Source of the DNA: Octopus vulgaris
Taxonomy: Eukaryota
Reading direction: 5' to 3'
NCBI GenBank assembly: GCA_951406725.2
Contig: OX597818.1
Span: forward strand, 47,182,001 to 47,246,000
DNA length: 64,000 bases
Both the position numbers and the translations under genes were made by a program. This document shows, one piece after another, positions 2,081-48,681 of this stretch (position 1 is its first letter; each line of letters starts with the position of its first letter). The notes under the pieces were generated by a model. That model worked only from the letters and a program-made list of their open reading frames with translations. It did not search any database and was not told the DNA's origin.

Positions 2081-2498
2081 TTAAGAGCTGCATTTAATAG
2101 CAGCCCTTAATTTGGCGGATCGAGCTCGAGGATTCCGTTTAACTTCTGTAGGATCAGGAACAATAACTTTCTTTTGTATAGGGTTCCATTTCTTTGATAT
2201 AATCCCTTGCACAGAAGCTTCATTGTATATTTTGGAAGGACTCAGAAACTGATGAGAGCTTAAAGACATGTTCTTAGAAGCATTAATGTCAATTCCATGA
2301 AAATGTCTTTTGACAATACGGTCTTCAAGAGAATGAAAAGAAATAGCTGCACAAACGCCTTCTTCTTTTAGATAACTGTGAGCGACAAGTAATCCGTTCG
2401 ACAGCTGGTTTAGTTCATTGTTCACAAATATACGTAACGCTTGAAATGTTTTCGTTGCAACATGGGCTGGTCTTTGGAGTTTATCGAGTTTCATTGGA
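2081..2498 (-). CDS. METTL15: METTL15 last coding exon
   Basis: Acceptor TTCTTTTTTCAG; [29 protein letters not shown]...[12 protein letters not shown]...[17 protein letters not shown] carries the RsmH C-terminal motifs. Stop TAA at 2083-2081. Confidence 0.97.
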
Positions 2499-2717
2499 CT
2501 GAAAAAAGAAAGGAAATTTTTAAGTAAATAAAGCAAAATTAATAATGTTAATTTGAAATCGTAGTCGTGGACCATGCCACTGCTGTCTGACTGACATACA
2601 AACACCCAGCACATTCTGCAAAGTGGTTATCATTGGTAAGGCCATCCAGCCACAGAAACCATGCCAAAACAGACAATTGGAGTCTGGGCCGATCTTCATC
2701 TGGCCAACTCCTGTTAA

Positions 2718-7495: not shown

Positions 7496-7612
7496 ATTGC
7501 ATATTTCATAACTTTATAAAGAGACTTAAATACTTATTGTGGAATGTCTTCATTTAAATACAACCTTTTTATAACAGCCAGCTTTATATCATAGAATCAG
7601 AAGCTGTCTGAA

Positions 7613-8972
7613 TTAAATATAATCCTCCACTATAGGCACAAGGCCTGACATTTTTTTGGGAAGAGGGCCAGTCAATTACATCAACCCCAGTGTGTAACTG
7701 GTACTTAATTTATCAACCCCAAAAGGATGAAAGGCAAAGTCGACCCCAGTGGCATTTGAATTCAGAACGTGATGACAGACGAAATACTGCTAAGCATTTT
7801 GCCTGGCGTGCTAATGATTCTGCCAACTTGCCACATTAAAAGGTTTATATATAATCCTTTCTACTATAGGCACAAGGCCTGAAATTTTTTTTTTTTTTGG
7901 GGGGGGGAGTCAATTACATCAACCCCAGTATGCAACTGATACTTAATTTATTGACTCCAGAAAGATGAAAGGCAAAGTTGGCACCAGTAGCATTTGAACT
8001 CAGATCATAATAACAGATGAAATACCGCTAAGCACTTCACCCGGTGTGCTAACGATTCTGCCAGCTTCCCACTTTAAAAGGATTAAATATAATCATTTCT
8101 GCTATAGACACAAGGCCTGAAATTTGAGGGGAGGGGGCCAGTCGATTAGATTGACCCCAGTATGCAACTGGTACTTAATTTATCAACTCAGAAAGAATGA
8201 AAGGCAATGTCAACCCCGGCGGCATTTGAACTCAGAACATGATGACAGATGAAATACTGCAATGCATTTTCCCTGGCATACTAATGATTCTGCCAGCTTG
8301 CCGCCTTAAAAGGATTAAATATAATCCTTTCTACTATAGGCACAAGGCCTGAAATTTTGGGGGAGGGGACCAGTCAATTAGATTGACCCCAGTATGCCAC
8401 TGGTACTTAATTTATTGACCCTGAAAGGATGAAAAGCAAAGTAGACCCTGGCGGCATTTGAACTGAGAACATGACGACAAACGAAATACCTATTTCTTTA
8501 CTACCCACAAGGGGCTAAACACAGAGGGGACAAACAAGGACAGACACACGGATTAAGTCGATTACATCGACCCCAGTGCATAACTGGTACTTATTTAATT
8601 GACCCCGAAAGGATGAAAGGCAAAGTTGACCTTGGCAGAATTTGAACTCAGAATGTAGCAGCAGACGAAATACCGCTAGCATTTCGCCCGGCATGCTAAC
8701 GTTTCTGCCAGCTCGCCGTCTTCAAAGGATTAAATATAATCCTTTTCTACTATAGGCACAATGCCTGAAATTTGTGGGGAGGGGGCCAGTCGATTAGATT
8801 GACCCCAGTATGCCACTGGTACTTAATTTATTGACCCTGAAAGGATGAAAAGCAAAGTCGACTTCGGCAGAATTTGAACTCAGAACCTAATGGCAGACGA
8901 AATACCGCTAAGCATTGCGTCTGGCATGCTAACGATTCTGCCAGCTCACTGCCTTAAAAGAAGTAAATATAA
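7613..8972 (-). repeat. Head-to-tail tandem array of SINE family B (about 235-bp units, 5 units plus one nested)
   Basis: Unit starts near 7613, 7847, 8083, 8315 and 8729 (TTAAATATAATCC...TATAGGCACAAGGCCTGAAAT); a variant copy is joined in at about 8491. Confidence 0.9.
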
Positions 8973-17548: not shown

Positions 17549-18199
17549 ACGTTCTTCATTGTTTTCAAAAACTCCAGCTTAATTAAATATGCATCCCAAT
17601 GAGTATTGTAGCAAAATTAGATGTATTAACAGACAAATGTACGCGAGAAGGTCAGAGTTGGAACGCATTTGATCATAGGACTACAGGATTAGAGTTGGCC
17701 AGGGGGTTAAACAACGACAATTCAATGCTATAATTTTAAATCTACCGTTTCCAATATTCCAAACTTTAACTTTCTTTTAAGTTTTCACGAAGCTCCAATA
17801 GTAAGTGTTTACAAAAAGAAAAAAAAAAACATTGTTGCCATATAAGAAGGAAAAGTTTGGGAGAAACTCAACTAGTAGCAGACTAAAATGAGTAAATTGC
17901 AATCAAATCAGAATACTTTATTTTATGGAAAAGAAATAGCCTTTTAAAATGTGCGACTACCATCATGTTCAAATATTAGAGAGAGAAAGAGAGAGTATAA
18001 ATAACAATTAAAGCTAATAAATTACTGAACAAAAACGACTTTTGTAGAAGTGAAAGTGGTACGTTATACTCCAAGACCGCCCTTATGTTTTCCCGTGTAA
18101 TCAGTCAAAATAAGGAAAACACAAACAACGGTTGACCTTCATTTCCTTAATTTCAATTTCCGTGTGATCCTCGTAACGTAAAATGAATAAAATTCTCAC

Positions 18200-18406
18200 C
18201 TGACCTTCTTTAGGATTCAAAATAGTCAGTATTTCGTTTAGCATCACAGGTATATGAGAACCTTTAGTATTTTGTGGTTTCTTTACTTGACACACGTGCC
18301 CGGTGGAGCAGAAACGATAATTTGGCAACAGCTTGAAATCCAACGGTCGCTGAAGCCGTAAACAAAAGCCTATAACAAGAGTTTGATGCATTCTAAAATG
18401 ATACAT
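18200..18406 (-). CDS. METTL15: METTL15 coding exon 1 (69 codons; likely mitochondrial targeting peptide plus HIPVM motif)
   Basis: MYHFRMHQTL...SHIPVMLNEILTILNPKEGQ; HIPVM matches the RsmH N-terminal HxPV motif. N-terminus is basic and acid-poor. Donor CAG|GTGAGA at 18199, phase 0. An alternative ATG at 18391 is possible. Confidence 0.9.
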
Positions 18407-18501
18407 AATGTTGGAAATGTAACATTAAGGAGTGATATAAGCTGAAATGATATTCAAAGTCGTCGAGTTACAACAGAAGCCATAACAGCAGATTGTAAAC
18501 A

Positions 18502-23985: not shown

Positions 23986-24377
23986 TCTATATATATAAAA
24001 CTGTAGTTGTGTGAGTGTCTGTCCCCTTCGATTTAGATTCCTAACTACTCCCACATTTTGCGGTGCAGTTTAACCAAAACCCGGTATCTTATAGTCGTGA
24101 TTCATATCGAGCCCTTCTGGGTATTAGCGCGCGTCTACGAAGAGTCTACGATTTAAAAAAAAATTTACCATCATTTTTTTCCATTTTCATGCATATTTTT
24201 TAAAGGGAAGTAACTCTCTAAAAATGTCTACGATGAGTCAACGATTTAAAAAAAATTTACCATCATATTTTTTCCATTTTTAATGCATTTTTTTGCTATT
24301 TTTTGGCTATAACTCTCTAAAAATGCTGTATAGTTATTTCCCTTACAAACCCGAGCAACGCCGGGCGATACTGCTAG
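23986..24377 (+). mobile_element. Non-autonomous Helitron
   Basis: A|TC...CCCGAGCAACGCCGGG hairpin...CTAG|T, no TSD. Confidence 0.85.
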
Positions 24378-24874
24378 TACTCTATAAATTCAATGTAATT
24401 AGAAGTAGTGAATGATGTTTCACTTACCATTGGCAAAAATGCCAGCAAAACAGTACAATAGTCATTTTGATAATTGCACGAATGAGATGCAAAACGTGCA
24501 AGGAAATGCATCGAACACTTAGTCCAACCGTCGATTAACAACGAAAATTCATCAGATATTTTATTTCCCCACTTCTTGAGTAAGCTTCTCTTTATATTTC
24601 TTTAAGGTCACATTTGTCATACTTCCCAAGTTAGTGTACTTACGAGTCAGTGGGTCTTCAGTAAAGGAAAATGGTTTTAAACCAGCGCAATACCTACTCA
24701 ATCGAATCATAAACATTTAACGCCGTGCGGCTGATCAAACTACTTCTTGGTGAAAGAAGACTCGATATATAAATAGTAAATCAAAAACGAACAAACACAC
24801 AAAAAAAAACTACAACGCGTGGACGTGGTACATGTAAAGTATTAGCAGACGCTCAGGGAAGGAAAGAGAGATGG

Positions 24875-24907
24875 TTTAACGTTTCGAGCAACGCTCTTCC
24901 TCAGAGA
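24875..24907 (-). ncRNA. Minimal hammerhead ribozyme motif within a repeat spanning about 24780-24957
   Basis: Minus strand reads CTGAGGA-A-GAGC-gtt-GCTC-GAAAC-GTT; homologous to 47846-47875. Stem I is weak. Confidence 0.5.
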
Positions 24908-25036
24908 CGGAGGAAAGTCCAATGGAAAGGAAGACGGAGGAAGAAAATCTCCAACGATTCACATTTGATTATATATAGATATAAAATACATCAAGTACAG
25001 GACATCACCAACGAGTGAAAAATACGTAAATGCATA

Positions 25037-29323: not shown

Positions 29324-29408
<85 letters not shown>

Positions 29409-29673
29409 ATAAATAAAATATAAAATACACATCGGATACACGACATCAACAACGAGTGAAAAATACGTAAACACACGAGAGATAAGTAGAGGACAAAATG
29501 CCAAAAGAAGATAACTCCTCATCAGTTGTCGGACTGTTTATTACTCCAATTTCGTGCTTGACCACAGTAAGTTCTTACACCTATATATATATAATTAATA
29601 TTAATATTAGGGAAGTTATTTCCGAGTTATATATATAGATAAGTTTAAGAGACAGAATCACCCTCAAGCAACT

Positions 29674-32699: not shown

Positions 32700-35220
32700 A
32701 ATCTGGCACAGGAAAAAATTCTATTGTGCCACTCTTTCCTTTGATGCTCTTAAGTATGCGCTTCAGGCCTGTATGCATGTTGTCGAGACTGCAGCTATTC
32801 TTGCTCTTGTTTTTATTGACCGGTCTATTGTTGAAAATTGAAGAACCATTCGCGACATAGTCACAGAAACTGTCTTCAGATTCACCAAGACCAAAAATCA
32901 GGACTAGTTTGATGAAAACAACATTGAAATCAACAACCTGATTGCAGCAAAAAAGAATGCTCGACTGGCTCATGAACAAGACTGAAAATCTAAACTCAAA
33001 TAGCAGCATTTCCAGAAGCTAAAACAAGAGTTTCAAACAAAACTAAGAGAACTGCGGAACATTTGGTGGCATGAAAAAGCAGTCGAACTTCGGAACTATG
33101 CAGATGCGCGAGACATCAGAAATTTCTATGCTGGAATGACACAAATATTTGGACCAGTACAAACAACCAGTTGATGTACGAACATCAACTGGATGCCTTC
33201 TAGCAGCATACAATACAAACATCCTGACCGATCCACAAGACATACTCTTACGTCGGAAGGAACATTTTTCCATCCTCCTTGTGGTGTTAGTAGTGTTATG
33301 GGCTGTGTTGGAGCTATGTGGTGTTGGTGGAGGGGATTGCAGATGAGGTGAACGGAAGTAAGGCTTGCAGGGGCCGGCGGAAGAGAGAAAGGGGCATGCG
33401 TGGGCAGGAAGCACGTGTGGTCAGTTCGAGCAAAGACGGCGCAGAGAAAAGACGTGTTTAATTCGTGAGAGTGACCGCTGATTTCGCCGAGGTCAACAGG
33501 TAAGGCCTTTGTATTTCTTTCTCCCGTTTGCTTCTTTTTTCTGTCGTCCTTTTCCTCCATCACACTACACTCCTAAATAGAAACTCGAACATAGCTGGGA
33601 ATTTCCTGAGAAACGCTCCAAATTATCATCTTCAGCTGTGGATGAACAGGACGCCTATTTTTCACGAATTCAAGCAAGCTATGAAGCGAATGGGATCGTG
33701 GAAGTCTCCAAAACCAGATAACATCCCTTTCGAGCAGATGAAATATGGAGGCTTAACCCTTGCAAACCTGCATCTTCGCCCTCATCCTGAAGATGCGGGG
33801 ATCAAAACATGTTCCTAAAGAACTGAAAGATGCAGTCATCATAACGATCTTCAAAAAAAAGTGATCGATAAAGCTTGTGGGAGCTAAAGAGGAATAACAT
33901 TACTTACCATCACTGGAAAGGTCTTTGCTAGGATTCTTCTAAATCAGCTCCAGATCATCGCCGAAAAGATCCTACCTGAATCTCAATGTGGATTCCGTTC
34001 TTCTCGTGGCATAACTTACATGATTTTCTGTGCAAGGCAACTCCAAGAGAAAAGCGGGGAACAACAAAACCTCATTTTACTTGTTTTCTATGACTTAGAA
34101 AAGGCCTTTGATAGTGTTCCAAGAACTGATGTGCGGAAGGTTCTTCATCGTTTTGGATGTCCTGACCACTTTATCTTTCTAGTTCGAGCAATGCATGACA
34201 ATATGTCTGGACGTGTATTCCACTAAAACATGCAGTCAGAAAAAATTCCAGTCCCGTGCGGACTATAACAAAGATGTGTCATGGCACCTACGTTGTTCTT
34301 GTGTCTGGCTGCATTGCTTCACAAAGTTCCTCCAGACAATCCAAGAGTTTACATCAGATATCGATATATTGGAGGACTTTTCAATCTTAGAAAACTTCGA
34401 TCTAAACATCTAACACACAAGCAACACATCTCAGAACTTTAATATGCTGATGACAGTGCTGATCTCTCTCATTCAAAAGAAGAACTCCAACTTTTCTGTG
34501 ACCTACCATCACTTTGGCCTTACAGTAAACATCAAGAAAACTAAGGTCCTTGCACAACCATCCCCAAATACATCTTACCAGATTTTAATGTTACCACCTC
34601 GAATACACCTCTCGAAAAAGTTAAGCATTTTCTATAGCTAGGCAGCCTATATCTAGGCAGCCTATATCTAGGCAGCTTATATCTAGGCAACCTTTTATCA
34701 AACAAGTGCAACCCAGAAAAGGATGTGGAACACAGAATTGGAGCTGCACACGGAGCATTTGGAAAGTTAATCAAACGCGTCTTCAACAACAAATGACTTA
34801 ACAGCGAAAATATTGTCTATAATGCTGTTGTCATTTCAACCATACTATATGGCTGTGAAACCTGGACTCTATATCGTCGCGACATCCAAAAATTAGAACG
34901 CTTTCATCAACAAAAAGCCTCACTCAAACTTGAGCATCAAATGGGAACACTACGTGACCATGAATAAAGTCCTGGAAAGAGCCAACAGTCAAAGTATCGA
35001 ATCACTGATCACGAAACACTGTCTTCGATCGTCAGGCCATTAGCAAGAATGGAAGAGTCAAGGTTTCCATGCCAAATCTTATTCATTGAACACACTTCAG
35101 GAAAAAGAGCATGGAGTTGCCCTCTTCGAAGATACAAAGAACAGCTCAAAGCAACACTGAAAGCCACTGGAACTGAGCTTAAGTCGTTTGAACCACATGC
35201 TCGAGACCGTATCAAGTGGT
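32700..35220 (+). mobile_element. Decayed RTE-clade LINE (reverse transcriptase pseudogene)
   Basis: ILPESQCGFRSSRG, MIFCARQLQEK, FYDLEKAFDSVPR, YADD at about 34443, LTVNIKKTKV and LYGCETWTL motifs; many stops and frameshifts; a 15-bp unit repeated about four times at 34637-34692. Confidence 0.92.
33280..33569. mobile_element. Solo LTR (290 bp) inserted in the RTE LINE
   Basis: TGTGGTG...CACTACA termini with perfect 5-bp TSD CTCCT; removing it rejoins the LINE reading KEHFSILL|NR. Confidence 0.8.
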
Positions 35221-37386: not shown

Positions 37387-38758
37387 TTTATTAATAAATA
37401 TCTTTTTTTCTTTACTCCCACTTTCTTTAATTTTTTTTTACTCCCACTTTCTTTAATTTTTTTTTTTGATGTTTACTTTTGGAAATCTTGATTTTTTTAA
37501 AACTCCTACTAACAAGAAATAAATCGCCATTTGGTTCCTCCAGACGTTGTCGTAGGACCGATATACATCTCCACTCAATTTCGATACATTTTCACATAAA
37601 CAAGCAGATTATTGGAAAGCAGGACCAGTTCAGATTGATCGAGCAGCAAGAGTCGTACATGTTACAGAACCTTGCTACATGTTATAGAACATAAATGCTA
37701 TCCTGCTTTCCACTTTTATGAACGACGAGATGTTTAGGATTGATCCAGAATCTGGAAAATATCCGAGATCCAATACACTTTAAATCCAACAAATTACAAT
37801 AATCAAATTAAATAACAACCGTTTAATTTTTTTTTGTCGGATGCTAAGTATATAGATTCGTCGTTCTATCAAAACAAAAATGAGACATCATATTCGTCAT
37901 AAAAGGCGGCAAGCTAGGAGAATCGTTATGTCGGAAAGTTTGCTTCGTAATATTTCTTCCGGTTCTTTACGTTATGATTTCAAATTCCGCCGAGGTTGAC
38001 TTTGCCTTTTTTCCTTTCGAGGTCAATAAAATAAATACTAGTTGAGCTCTGGGATCAGTGTAATCGATTTATTTCCCCCTTACGATTGCTGTCTTCATGC
38101 CAAAATTTGAAACCGTTATATTTGTCATAGAACAGCTGAGCTTAATTATTATTTTTCTCATAGATAAGATTGGCTAAATTAATCAGATTATTAATGCATT
38201 ATTGACCAGGCCCATGAATGAATCAAATTATTACTAATATATCAGGTCCAGACCGGATGTGAAATGCAGGTCTAATTTTATTTGGTTATATGACTGAGGC
38301 TAGACGTAAAATGCAGGCCTCGTTTTAAACTGCCCATTAAGTATTTTAGTAATAAATGCCAAAAACATATTGATGTAAGGGCAGTGCCAGTTTAAGGCAT
38401 GAGCACACCGGACAGTTTCCCGGGGGCTTCACGGGTCCAGAAGCCCAATTCTGATCTATATATGGGGTGATTTACTGTCAATAAATAAATACTACTAAGT
38501 ACAGTGCATTGATTTGCCCCGGGGTTTATAATGCAGCTAAGGCGGCCCTTTGTATGGGTCACTAGTATATTAGATATACACCTAGTGAACAAGAAATATT
38601 TACCAGTAACAGAATAGTATATAAGAACTAGAGCGATTTAGAAAATAGGAAATTATTTGCCAAAGGGTTCTCTTTGCGTTTATTAGAGAGGAGTAAACCG
38701 CTTTTAATAACGTTGGTTCATGCCAACTTGATCTCTTCTCTGGTCTGTTGAAGATACC

Positions 38759-39172
38759 TATTTCTTTGCTACCCACAAGGGGCTAAACACAGAGAAGACA
38801 AACAAGGACAGACAAACGGATTAAGTCGATTATATCGACCCCAATGCGTAACTGGTACTTATTTAATCGACCCCGAAAGGATGAAATGCAAAGTTGACCT
38901 CGGCGGAATTTGAACTCAGAACGTAGCGACAGACGAAATACCTATTTCTTTATTACCCATAAGGGGCTAAACATATAGGGGACAAACAAGGCCAGACAAA
39001 GGTATTAAGTAGATTACATCGACTCCAATGTGTAACTGGTACTTAATTTATCGACCCCGAAAAGATGAAAGGCAAAGTCGACCTCGGCGGAATTTGAACT
39101 CAGAACGTAGCGACATACGAAATACCGTTAAGCATTTCGCCCGGCGTGCTAACGTTTCTGCCAGCTCGCCGC
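38759..39172 (-). mobile_element. Dimeric SINE family B
   Basis: Two units joined at GAAATACC|TATTTC, flanked by one 14-bp TSD CTGTTGAAGAT(A/C)CC. Confidence 0.9.
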
Positions 39173-39954: not shown

Positions 39955-41539
39955 TCTCTTATTATAAAAGGCAGATTTTATCTGCCTCCCTTTGTCTCTT
40001 ATAGAAATCTACAATATAGGATTTCTTCAATTACAATTTACCTAGCATTTTTAAGAGTAGAATACATCGGGTCGTGCCAGGTCCAGTTTTTCAAATTTCA
40101 ACCCCAATTAAGCAACATTTCGAGAAAACTCACATTGTGGTGTGTAAGTGAAGTGCTTTTCTTAGTGTGGGCTACAGCACACACACACACACACAAAAAC
40201 GGAGCGAATTGCTTCACTCATGCTATCACCCTAATTTCTCCTCCTTTCTCTTTGCAAGTGTGCAACGATTAAAGTGAAAGTATTTATATAAAACGGATCA
40301 CTCATGCTATCACCATAATTTCTCATACTTTCTCTTTGCAAGTGTACCTTAAACCACTACTCAAAAAAAAAAACAGCAAACAGAAACAAATAAATACATA
40401 ACGATTTACTCCTCACACAATTTCTTCAATTAGAGTTTACCTATGATTTTTCAAAGTACTTCCATTCGGTCATGACATACAAAATTTCTTTCAATTTTAC
40501 CCCCATTTCAGAAAAGTATAATGAAAATAACATCTAAAGTTATCTCTAAGAAAAAGAAAGATCGCCCAAAAGTGTATATAGATATTTAAATGTATTTATA
40601 TATTCATCTATACACACATGTATGTATAATGTGCGTGTGTATATTTCCATAGAGGTAACCATTCAATCCATACAAAGTTTTTTAGGACGAAAATCTTTAT
40701 ATATAAAAGAAAGGTTGTGTGTCTGTCTACTCCGATTTAGATTCCTAACTACTCCCACATTTTGCGATGCAGTTTAACCAAAACCGGGTATCTTATAGTC
40801 GTGATTCATATCGAGCCCTTCTGGGTATTAGCGCGCGTCTACGATGAGTCTACGATTTTACAAATAATTTACCATCATTTTTTTCCATTTTAATGCATAT
40901 TTTTTAAATAAAGGGAAGTAACTCTCAAACTTCACACCAATATGCGTGCTCATATGCGACGTAATATCACATCAGCAGCATTTCCTCACACCCTCCTTGC
41001 ACTTGGCGTAGGCAAAATACCAGGGGATGAAACTGGTAATATTGCCATCGATTCCATTTGTACCTTTGTTAAGACGCCTTCTGATCTCAGAGATGCAGTG
41101 TTCCCAGATCTACAAGCTAATTATCAGAATATGGATTGGATTGGCCAAAAGGCTATACTGGCCCCGAGGAATAAAACTGTTCACCATATTAATGATGAAA
41201 TGCTAAATCTCATTCCTGGGGAAGTCTATGTATATCAGTCTTTCGATACAACTCCTGACCCAGAGGACGTCATCAACTATCCAATAAAGGTACTCAATTC
41301 CTTTGAGCACCCCGGACTACCACCACACTTTCTCAAACTTAAAGTTGGTGCCCCTATAATGCTCATCAGATATTTGGTTCCCCCAAAACAATGCAATGGC
41401 ACACGTTTGATCGTTAAGTCCTTATCTCCCACCGTAAACTTATATCAATATTTGCCTGAATAATCATCATAATTCAGTGCAATCATTAACAGTACTTTCA
41501 AGCAATTCAGCCCCGAGCAACGCCGGGCAATTCTGCTAG
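39955..41539 (+). mobile_element. Composite non-autonomous Helitron with helicase fragment
   Basis: Inserted at A^T in the MITE sequence GGTAGAA|TGTGTTT with no TSD. 5' TC, second 5' end at 40694, 3' hairpin plus CTAG. Confidence 0.9.
40942..41463 (+). pseudogene. Helitron RepHel Pif1-family helicase fragment (173-aa open frame)
   Basis: MR...VFPDL...AILAPRN...IN...LIPGE...LNS...GLPPHFLKLKVGAPIMLIR...CNGTRLIV are Pif1/Helitron helicase motifs; truncated at both ends. Confidence 0.92.
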
Positions 41540-45833: not shown

Positions 45834-46436
45834 GGACGGCGAGTTGGTAGAAATGTTAGCACGCCGGGCGAAATCCGTAGCCGTATTTCGTCTGCCGCTA
45901 CGTTCTGAGTTCAAATTCCGCCGAGGTCGACTTTGCCTTTCATCCTGTCGGGGTCGATTAAATAAGTACCAGTTACGCACTGGGGTCGATGTAATCGACT
46001 TAATCCGTTTGTCTGTCCTTGTTTGTCCCCTCTGTGTTTGGCCCTTTTGGGTAGCAAAGAATTCATTCTTTCGGGGTCGATAAATTAAATACCAGTTACG
46101 CACTGGGGTCGATGTAATCGACTTAATCCGTTTGTCGGTCCTTGTTTGTCTCCTCTGTGTTTGGCCCCTTGTGGGTAGTAAAGAATTCATTCTTTCGGAG
46201 TCGATTAATTAAGTACCAGTTACGCACTGGGGTCGATGTAATCGACTTAATCTGTTTGTCTGTCCTTGTTTGTCCCCTCTGTGTTTGGCCCCTAGTGGGT
46301 AGTAAAGAATTAATTCTTTCGGGGTCGATAAATTAAGTACCAGTTACGCACTGGGGTCGATGTAATCGACTTAATCCGTTTGTCTGTCCTTGTTTGTCCT
46401 CTCTGTGTTTAGCCCCTTGTGGATAGTAAAGAAATA
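45834..46436 (+). mobile_element. SINE family B with its 3' half repeated four times (124-bp period)
   Basis: One head followed by units restarting at about 46062, 46186 and 46310. Confidence 0.9.
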
Positions 46437-46965: not shown

Positions 46966-47569
<604 letters not shown>

Positions 47570-47674
47570 AGAGAGAGAGAGTTTGTTTCTTTTTTCTTTT
47601 CTTAATTGGTTTTTACACCTGATATCATGTTACACTGAAAATCTTAGAAGTTAATTCTTGAATGCTGGCTAACG

Positions 47675-47757
47675 CTCTGGCGGCCAGATACTAGCGACTG
47701 AGGACAAGCCTAGAAGCTCGAAACTGAGTCAGTCTCGCGATCCTGTGTCTGCTAGAG
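47675..47757 (+). ncRNA. Type I hammerhead ribozyme (full fold, predicted GUC cleavage after 47734)
   Basis: Stem I GCGA/TCGC, extended past an internal loop by CAGATAC/GTGTCTG; core CTGAGGA at 47698-47704; stem II (A)AGC/GCT(C); GAAA; stem III ACTG/CAGT; GTC site. The closing pair of stem II is an A-C mismatch. Confidence 0.7.
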
Positions 47758-47842
47758 AATGGTAGGGGTTCGCTCCCCCTGCTGGCACGTTGGCGATTTT
47801 CTTTCTCCGTCTTCCCTTCCTTGGGCCTTTCCCTTTTCTATG

Positions 47843-47875
47843 TTTCTGACGAAGAGCTCCGCTCGAAACGTTAAA
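47843..47875 (+). ncRNA. Minimal hammerhead ribozyme motif (palindromic stem III)
   Basis: TTT-CTGACGA-A-GAGC-tcc-GCTC-GAAAC-GTT-AAA. Confidence 0.6.
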
Positions 47876-47997
47876 TCCTTCTTTCTTTGCTTTCCTGAGC
47901 GTCCAATAACACTATACTTATTCCACGTCCTCGCCTTGTGTTTTCTCTGTTCATTTTGGGATTCACTATATACATACATACATACATAAATCCATAC

Positions 47998-48054
<57 letters not shown>

Positions 48055-48132
48055 GCAGTGTCACACCGATAACCAGGTGGCAGCCTATCTGCTTAGGGTT
48101 AATGAAACAGCCACTTGTTAGTTAGTATAGTT

Positions 48133-48681
48133 CAGCAGTTCTCAAACTTTCCAAAAACTTTTCGTGCCGGTCCCCTTATAGTTTTTTCGATGATTCGCGG
48201 TCCCCTATAAAATGCGGGATAATCAACATAGAAAAAAATGACACACGTTCGTGTACCGTAATTTCCGGACTATAAACCGCACTGCCTATAGACCCACAAC
48301 CCCGAAAATCCCAACTTAATCCAAGCAATTCCCCGTTAGGATACAATAAATGCACATGAAAATATGGGGAATCGGTTGATTAATTGGTTACAAAATAAAT
48401 TTGAAACGAAAAATACGGACAGTGCATGCACGATCAGCCGTTATACCCACATATTTTCCATCGGTCAATCATACTTGTACAAGTGTGATCAGTAAATGAG
48501 CGTGTAGAAGTGACGTGGGGTTTTGAGGCCGACGACGAAAAGGATGATAGCATGCGTAAAAATTGAAAGTCTTGAAATTTCAAAACTTAATTGTCTCAAG
48601 CCACCCCGTTTTCACGATACTTCAGTGTCCCTTCGCGGTGTCCCTAAAATTGATTCACGGCCCCCAGTTTGAGAACCACTT
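48133..48681. mobile_element. hAT (Charlie-like) MITE
   Basis: TIR CAGCAGTTCTCAAAC / GTTTGAGAACCACT; perfect 8-bp TSD GTATAGTT. Confidence 0.85.

What the first reader, a model, noticed from the sequence alone, without database searches (positions are those of the whole stretch)
47564..47967. Two tandem hammerhead ribozymes in a ~400-bp non-coding element between TA microsatellites
Seen: a complete type I hammerhead fold at 47675-47757 (CUGAGGA core, GAAA, stem III ACUG/CAGU, GUC site, stem I with an internal loop). Its predicted cut lies 138 nt upstream of the cut of a second, minimal hammerhead (CUGACGA-A-GAGC/GCUC-GAAACGUU) on the same strand. Known: tandem and minimal, dimer-cleaving hammerheads occur in Penelope-like elements and retrozymes, and double cleavage yields 5'-OH and 2',3'-cyclic phosphate ends that can be ligated into circles. 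Inferred: this is a cephalopod Penelope-associated or retrozyme-like element pairing two different ribozymes that could excise a 138-nt RNA (47735-47872). The A-C mismatch closing stem II may be CpG decay of an ancestral G-C, so this copy may be impaired.
Basis: partly seen in the sequence, partly recalled or inferred. Interest (0 to 1): 0.85.

Follow-up and report, generated by a model that had tools for sequence, protein, structure and literature searches.

The report
Nested repeats mimic a double ribozyme
Two self-cutting-RNA (hammerhead) motifs do sit 138 bases apart here, but they belong to two separate repeat families, one of which likely jumped into a worn copy of the other, so the pairing is likely an accident and not a new double-ribozyme element.

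Summary
Both hammerhead cores are at the stated places and exceed chance. Contigs of public runs split it at 47787/47788 into two repeat families. Family A (47665-47787) carries the full type I hammerhead. Family B (47788-47967) carries a Penelope-type minimal hammerhead and is far more abundant. Other A copies continue after 47787 into a TA-rich stretch and a motif that reappears here at 48045-48062, right after B and its microsatellite. B therefore likely inserted into A's TA-rich site. No laid contig runs from A into B at this junction, and a second B copy in the window has no A upstream. The 138-nt piece could not rebuild a hammerhead as a circle. Three contigs joining A to B's 3' part elsewhere are unexplained. 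Cleavage and expression were not tested. The scan has noted other hammerhead repeat families in this genome but no look-alike of this DNA. Two new members of known kinds; low interest.

The parts
47501..47563 (.). TA microsatellite to the left; 101 bases away from family A and not shown to belong to either family
   Evidence: family A contigs begin no further left than 47665
47564..47664 (.). AT-rich flank (30% GC); not family A sequence
   Evidence: GC; family A contigs carry other sequence before 47665 (loose ends)
47665..47787 (+). Left piece of a family A copy (retrozyme-like repeat with a full type I hammerhead), about 85% alike to the nearest long contigs
   Evidence: contigs in 4 of 4 runs lie on exactly 47665-47787 with 18-20 other letters and then leave the window sequence (tables 7 and 8)
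47675..47757 (+). HHR1, canonical type I hammerhead, predicted cut after 47734; worn at helix I (47693), helix II (47706) and loop II (47711, 47713, 47714); helix III is self-complementary
47788..47967 (+). Family B copy: very abundant Penelope-type end sequence with a minimal hammerhead, cut short on its 5' side, 3' end at the microsatellite
   Evidence: depth rises about 50-fold or more at the bin holding 47788, and other B copies carry their own upstream sequence; 78% match to 24806-24956
47842..47876 (+). HHR2, minimal hammerhead: extra base between positions 9 and 10.1, G10.1-C11.1, palindromic ACGU in place of helix III, 4-pair helix I; predicted cut after U47872
   Evidence: features as listed in PMC4209133
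47968..48049 (.). TACA/TA microsatellite standing where other family A copies have a short TA-rich stretch; the inferred target site of B
   Evidence: loose ends behind 47787
48050..48132 (+). Right piece of the same family A copy; only its first 13 bases are matched to family A, and the right end is inferred from the next insertion
   Evidence: the motif taken matches once in the window, at 48045-48062 with 1 mismatch, and 0 times in 100 shuffles; 8-base direct repeat at 48125 and 48682
24806..24956 (-). Second family B copy in the window, with a minimal hammerhead core at 24904 and no family A sequence upstream; its helix I has a mismatch

Best explanation
The two hammerhead motifs belong to two separate repeat families, and a 5'-shortened copy of the abundant minimal-hammerhead family (B) likely inserted into a TA-rich site of an older, worn copy of the full-hammerhead family (A), so the 138-nt spacing is likely accidental. 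Shown: the family boundary at 47787/47788, the resumption of A after the microsatellite, and the departures of this copy from its family. Inferred mechanism: a Penelope-like element's GIY-YIG endonuclease nicked the TA-rich stretch about 55 bases downstream of A's cut site. Reverse transcription was primed at B's 3' end and stopped early, at 47788. The TA stretch then grew by slippage into the 83-base microsatellite. Each ribozyme likely served its own family. A's hammerhead sits in a long hairpin and would cut unit-length RNA from repeated units, as monomer or through its self-complementary helix III. B's hammerhead would cut only when paired with a second B copy, and probably poorly, because most of the family has U at the cleavage position. 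At this locus HHR1 is predicted to be weak or dead and HHR2 has no partner in cis, so no 138-nt product is expected in quantity.
For: (1) Summed contig depth peaks about 450 to 2,800 times higher on B than on A in 3 of 3 DNA runs, with the step at 47787/47788. This is no copy number, but it shows two families. (2) A contigs leave the window at 47787: 16, 14, 9 and 11 contigs in four runs, all continuing into a TA-rich stretch; depth at 47798-47806 is 0 in 4 of 4 runs. (3) B contigs carry another sequence before 47788: 107, 90, 94 and 48 contigs. (4) The continuation of A matches once in the 64-kb window, at 48045-48062, directly behind B and its microsatellite; 0 of 100 shuffles match. (5) The second B copy also starts beside TA-rich DNA, ends at the same 3' motif and has no A upstream. 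(6) Neither hybrid helix I pairs at its first two positions. The helix III regions of HHR1 and HHR2 do not pair (+0.3 kcal/mol), whereas each pairs with itself (-13.2 and -3.5). (7) The hammerhead fold of this copy lies 10.9-14.2 kcal/mol above the best fold; with family-majority letters the gap is 6.4 and helices I and II form. (8) Published: most Penelope-like insertions are 5'-truncated (bioRxiv 10.64898/2026.07.22.740005). TA microsatellites are preferred targets of Naiads, and a microsatellite bias is mentioned for Neptune elements (PMC8557442). Most minimal hammerheads occur as single motifs of truncated elements (PMC4209133).
Against: Three contigs (2 in X2, 1 in X3, none in X1 or X7) join A at 47744/47745 to B's 3' part at 47877/47879, with the letters between not known (table 5); I could not resolve them. 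One X1 contig reaches into 47789-47797 at depth 22.5. The continuation motif fits the X1 and X9 consensus well but the X3 and X8 consensus less well (agreement 0.55 and 0.62), and I chose it after seeing the match by eye, so the shuffle control is after the fact. No laid contig holds this locus itself (47627-47662 is uncovered), so no empty site was seen. No target-site duplication can be read in the microsatellite. Even with family letters, ViennaRNA does not predict helix III, because the core can pair with it. No Penelope ORF was linked to either family here.
Confidence: 0.85

Rival explanations
1. A and B form a composite element that has itself been copied a few times, so the two-ribozyme arrangement is mobile even if it began as a nested insertion.
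For: Three contigs join A to B's 3' part (table 5), at a shared 5-base word at 47740-47744 and 47875-47879. Both ribozymes lie on the same strand and share the helix II arms GAGC/GCUC in the family form.
Against: Those joints skip the minimal hammerhead and lie at another junction. No contig of the 146, 94, 79 and 85 laid covers 47798-47806. The tool warns that joints at likeness under 95 often come from repeats.
Confidence: 0.07
2. The pairing is accidental but active: read-through transcripts are cut at both sites (HHR2 with a B partner in trans from the many B transcripts) and release a 138-nt RNA that a host ligase may close.
For: Both cores are intact. A run guessed to be RNA holds many B-like contigs (X7), although it may be DNA.
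Against: HHR1 lacks G10.1-C11.1 and is predicted to misfold. Minimal hammerheads showed no detectable cleavage as single motifs and low cleavage as dimers (PMC4209133). HHR2 has U at position 17, a poor cleavage site by recalled knowledge. A 138-nt circle could not rebuild a hammerhead, so it could not be processed again.
Confidence: 0.06
3. The junction is an assembly artefact or an ectopic recombination product and not an insertion.
For: No laid contig spans the junction or the whole stretch.
Against: A mis-join would not leave A's two pieces in order on either side of B. No run held more than 0.24 of the stretch's words, so the runs need not contain this allele.
Confidence: 0.02

Closest known systems
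Minimal hammerheads of metazoan Penelope-like elements (Cervera and de la Pena 2014, PMC4209133; parts 1-2 of 4 read)
   Same: Family B: extra base between 9 and 10.1, G10.1-C11.1, palindromic 15.2-16.2, short helix I, spread as single motifs in many copies.
   Different: Helix II is 4 pairs, not the 7-8 of the Schistosoma families. The family mostly has U at position 17, and 35-45% of depth has C for U4. No parent ORF was found here.
Metazoan non-LTR retrozymes (Cervera and de la Pena 2020, PMC7229834, passages and part 3 of 6 read; Li, Clavereau and Pollet, bioRxiv 10.64898/2026.07.22.740005, parts 1-3 of 5 read)
   Same: Family A: canonical type I hammerhead in a short non-coding, self-paired repeat with dispersed copies; lives beside Penelope-type minimal hammerheads, as reported for mussel and axolotl.
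   Different: This copy is single, broken by two insertions and worn. Tandem units, unit length and circular RNA were not shown for family A, so it could also be the end repeat of a Penelope-like element. Retrozyme monomers are cut by two copies of the same ribozyme, not by two different ones.
Rfam Hammerhead_HH9 (RF02275)
   Same: Core, helix layout, the UAC bulge in helix I and a six-base loop II starting with C and ending with A align to HHR1; the family's loop II (C-A-A/C-C/U... read) is closer to the model than this copy's.
   Different: The score of 19.2 bits is far below the gathering score of 52. HHR1 has the extra base after A9 and a different helix II sequence.

Membership tests
Canonical type I hammerhead (HHR1) | Core CUGANGA, GAAA and UH | tested here: met
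   in the family no variant row at 47699, 47700, 47703, 47704, 47720-47723 or 47733, and at most 11% other letters at 47698, 47701 and 47734; contigs had to be 80% alike to be laid
Canonical type I hammerhead (HHR1) | Three helices, helix I open | tested here: met
   pairings, with one mismatch each in helix I and helix II; not the predicted best fold
Canonical type I hammerhead (HHR1) | G10.1-C11.1 pair | tested here: not met
   A47706.C47719 in this copy; met in 81-87% of family depth
Canonical type I hammerhead (HHR1) | Compensatory changes in helices among copies | tested here: inconclusive
   only per-position tables were available; the helix I changes seen (47695, 47736, 47737) look like CpG decay and cannot be paired up
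Canonical type I hammerhead (HHR1) | Self-cleavage | not testable with these tools
   needs in vitro transcription
Penelope minimal hammerhead (HHR2) | Unpaired base between positions 9 and 10.1 | tested here: met
   A47853; same in the copy at 24904
Penelope minimal hammerhead (HHR2) | G10.1-C11.1 and palindromic 15.2-16.2 without helix III | tested here: met
   G47854-C47864; ACGU 47868-47871 pairs with itself
Penelope minimal hammerhead (HHR2) | Short helix I of 4-5 pairs | tested here: met
   4 pairs; 58-80% of family depth has C at 47876, which turns G-U into G-C
Penelope minimal hammerhead (HHR2) | Lies in the end repeat of an element with RT and GIY-YIG domains | tested here: inconclusive
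   no genome held; 9 of 57 listed frames scanned against Pfam gave no GIY-YIG and one RT fragment about 13.5 kb away
Metazoan non-LTR retrozyme (family A) | Tandem units, each with the same type I hammerhead | tested here: not met
   single copy at this locus and in the window; the family elsewhere was not seen at unit length
Metazoan non-LTR retrozyme (family A) | Short, non-coding, highly self-paired, multi-copy | tested here: met
   79-146 contigs laid on 47564-47806 per run, most on the family A part; the family's upstream loose end is complementary to 47767-47787 and beyond, read by eye; 58% GC over 123 bases
Metazoan non-LTR retrozyme (family A) | Expressed as unit-length circular RNA | not testable with these tools
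   only contigs were served, which cannot show RNA ends or circles
   hybrid helix I fails at its first two pairs

The most novel reading that the evidence does not exclude
Full-hammerhead retrozyme-like repeats and minimal-hammerhead Penelope ends recombine or nest repeatedly in this lineage, and some of the hybrids are copied onward. That would give mobile units with two different hammerheads, or with one swapped for the other, and would be a direct route by which retrozymes exchange ribozymes with Penelope-like elements. The three contigs that join A to B's 3' part at a shared 5-base word are the only hint.
Probability: 0.08. Interest if true: 0.6.

Novelty: new member of a known kind. Interest (0 to 1): 0.22.

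Why it matters
As it stands it is an ordinary nested insertion of two hammerhead-bearing repeats of known kinds. It is a warning for ribozyme scans: in a genome this rich in hammerhead repeats that share TA-rich targets, close same-strand pairs of different ribozymes will arise by accident. The families have some value. Cephalopod hammerhead repeats were not found described in my searches (one relevant paper, on Naiads). Family B is very abundant although it mostly has U at the cleavage position and often C for U4, which bears on the open question of whether Penelope minimal hammerheads need to cut at all.

Tried and rejected
No whole genome is held, so no genome-wide search, consensus or covariation test was possible. 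Rfam over 8 kb gave only microsatellite-driven miRNA and snoRNA hits. My first two descriptors were faulty: one search allowed no extra base after A9 and missed both motifs, and one search missed HHR1 by over-extending helix III; one search is the corrected control. Free folding gave no unusual stability (z -1.10, -0.72, 0.62 and 0.22 for four pieces). Exact patterns found nothing in metagenome contigs or viral contigs. No RNA holder was listed. X7, guessed to be RNA, had no cover on family A, which is no evidence on expression. 47627-47662 was uncovered in all four runs, which proves nothing. Look-ups among the scan's earlier notes found no look-alike DNA and nothing for the nested case by words. 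No tRNA gene was found in the window, so there is no sign of a tRNA-derived head. The bacterial promoter scan is not informative for an animal. Rejected: the TA microsatellites as the two ends of one element, because family A starts 101 bases inside the left one and continues beyond the right one. Rejected: HHR1 as dimer partner of HHR2. Both read-laying runs are used, so the three A-to-B contigs and the rest of family A could not be read. Supplements were not opened; the larger alignments in the supplement of PMC4209133 may include mollusc minimal hammerheads, and the preprint's supplements are closed.

Full report
Observation. HHR1 has its core at 47698-47704 and 47720-47723, the triplet GUC with a predicted cut after 47734, a 4-pair helix III, helix II with an A47706.C47719 mismatch, and a long helix I in three parts with a second mismatch, A47693.G47739. 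HHR2 has its core at 47846-47852, an extra A, a 4-pair helix II, GAAACGUU to 47872 and a 4-pair helix I. Rfam matched HHR1 weakly to Hammerhead_HH9 (19.2 bits, E 0.031, gathering 52) in a 361-base search and gave no hammerhead hit in an 8-kb search. A corrected descriptor finds these two motifs only, and none in 60 shuffled windows or 20,000 shuffles of the stretch (searches had faults, described under Tried and rejected). The motifs are real.

Setting. The window is animal DNA full of repeats and microsatellites, with a MraW/METTL15-like exon at 2084-2626. Earlier notes of this scan call the genome an octopus; I did not test that. No whole genome is held. I scanned 9 of the 57 listed frames against Pfam and found no GIY-YIG domain and one RT fragment about 13.5 kb away.

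Two families. A self-search found one other match, 24806-24956 on the minus strand, 78% alike to 47788-47944 only. It has a minimal core at 24904 and no HHR1-like sequence upstream. I then laid contigs of public runs (20 of the 24 listed runs held part of the stretch, none more than 0.24 of its words). On 47540-48000, summed depth peaked about 450, 2,800 and 900 times higher on the HHR2 part than on the HHR1 part in the three DNA runs. This sum is not a copy number, but the step lies at 47787/47788. There 107, 90, 94 and 48 contigs of the abundant family (B) carried a different upstream sequence. On 47564-47806 alone, 146, 94, 79 and 85 contigs were laid in four runs of four species labels. 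The longest covered exactly 47665-47787 with 18-20 other letters. At 47787, 16, 14, 9 and 11 contigs left the window sequence for a TA-rich stretch followed by a short G-rich motif, and depth at 47798-47806 was zero in all four (one X1 contig reached into 47789-47797). So HHR1 belongs to a separate, less abundant family (A).

Nesting. The motif that follows the TA-rich stretch in other A copies occurs once in the window, at 48045-48062, directly after B and its microsatellite (1 mismatch; 0 of 100 shuffles). I saw this match by eye first, and it fits the X1 and X9 consensus better than those of X3 and X8. The order is therefore A-left, B, microsatellite, A-right. The simplest reading is that B was inserted into A's TA-rich stretch, with its 3' end at the TA run and its 5' side cut short. 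That agrees with published behaviour of Penelope-like elements: 5' truncation (bioRxiv 10.64898/2026.07.22.740005, parts 1-3 of 5 read) and a bias for microsatellite targets that hides target-site duplications (PMC8557442, 12 of 25 passages seen). The enzyme and the order of events are inferred. A further insertion with an 8-base direct repeat (48125 and 48682) interrupts A-right.

State of the ribozymes. In family A the core hardly varies among laid contigs, while this copy departs from the majority at 47705 (68-81% T), 47706 (81-87% G), 47711 (87-96% A), 47713 and 47714. Most loose-end lines also show C at 47693, which would close helix I; one X3 group has A, as here. The hammerhead fold of this copy lies 10.9-14.2 kcal/mol above its best fold, against 6.4 with majority letters, where helices I and II form. 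Helix III is not predicted in either case because the core can pair with it; helix III is self-complementary and would be far more stable between two copies (-13.2 against -0.5 kcal/mol). That suits a family working in repeated units. Compensatory changes could not be tested. HHR2 shows the marks listed for Penelope minimal hammerheads in PMC4209133 (parts 1-2 of 4 read), which also reports no detectable cleavage of a single motif and low cleavage of dimers. In family B, 70-96% of depth keeps U at the cleavage position, a poor site by recalled knowledge, and 35-45% has C for U4.

The 138-nt RNA. Retrozyme monomers are cut by two copies of one ribozyme (PMC7229834, passages and part 3 of 6 read), so a closed monomer would hold a whole ribozyme again (my inference). 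Here the closed 138-nt piece would join HHR2's core to HHR1's 3' strand, and that helix I fails at its first two pairs; the reverse hybrid fails too. The helix III regions of the two do not pair. So the piece could not be processed again, and HHR1 cannot activate HHR2.

Against my reading. Three contigs (two in X2, one in X3, none in X1 or X7) join A at 47744/47745 to B's 3' part at 47877/47879, with unknown letters between. The joint falls at a 5-base word shared by both families. They may be other B insertions, hybrids or alignment noise; I could not read them. No contig spans this locus and no empty site was seen.

Comparison and novelty. Family B works like, and passes the structural tests for, Penelope minimal hammerheads; its parent element was not seen. 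Family A works like a metazoan non-LTR retrozyme, but tandem units and circles were not shown, so I do not file it as one. Searches for hammerhead, Penelope and octopus, retrozyme and octopus, and hammerhead ribozyme, cephalopod and retrotransposon listed no paper on cephalopod hammerhead repeats; I saw most of these only as listings. The scan's own notes hold many other hammerhead repeat families from this genome, unchecked by me, and no look-alike of this DNA. PMC6155905 was seen as passages only. The paper on dimer cleavage of small hammerheads is recalled and was not read (one search found only papers that hold its title words).

Verdict. Observation confirmed; interpretation partly supported. 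These are two new members of known kinds, placed together by a likely nested insertion (confidence 0.85). Interest 0.22.

Noticed in passing
window 29553-29519 (-): GAAA comes before CUGAUGA, 24 bases apart: a hammerhead-like core in reverse order, of the kind that earlier notes of this scan describe for Naiad-type elements. Its tail (29408-29471) is 84% alike to 24970-25030, the DNA just upstream of the second B copy, so that B copy may also sit in another element's TA-rich tail.
   Followed up: no
window 47788-47877, in runs X1 and X7: Contigs go back from 47877 to 47788 with 9 letters between, which gives a 99-base tandem unit holding the minimal hammerhead (depth 3346 in X1, 27.5 in X7). 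Such arrays would supply the dimer partner in cis and may be a small retrozyme cut from family B.
   Followed up: no
window 47847 and 47872 (family B): 35-45% of family depth has C for core U4, and 70-96% has U at the cleavage position: a very abundant family with a probably weak ribozyme.
   Followed up: partly
window 47744/47745 to 47877/47879, in runs X2 and X3: Three contigs join family A to the 3' part of family B at a shared 5-base word; the letters between are not known.
   Followed up: no
window 48133-48681: Insertion with inverted ends and an 8-base direct repeat at 48125 and 48682; looks like a hAT-type miniature transposon by recalled criteria.
   Followed up: partly
window 2084-2626 (-): Exon of a MraW/METTL15-like methyltransferase gene (PF01795, E 4.9e-27); a frame at 18101-18424 may be an earlier exon but gave no Pfam hit.
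   Followed up: partly
window 33888-34223 (+) and 40912-41460 (+): Reverse transcriptase fragment (PF00078) and a Pif1 helicase 2B fragment (PF21530), likely remains of a LINE and a Helitron. A 34-base word at the end of 47122-47500 recurs at 24345, 30833 and 42723.
   Followed up: no
window 7612-8490, 38754-39126, 45939-46433: Short tandem arrays (232, 184 and 124 bases) of one abundant dispersed repeat; no hammerhead core found in them by my descriptor.
   Followed up: no
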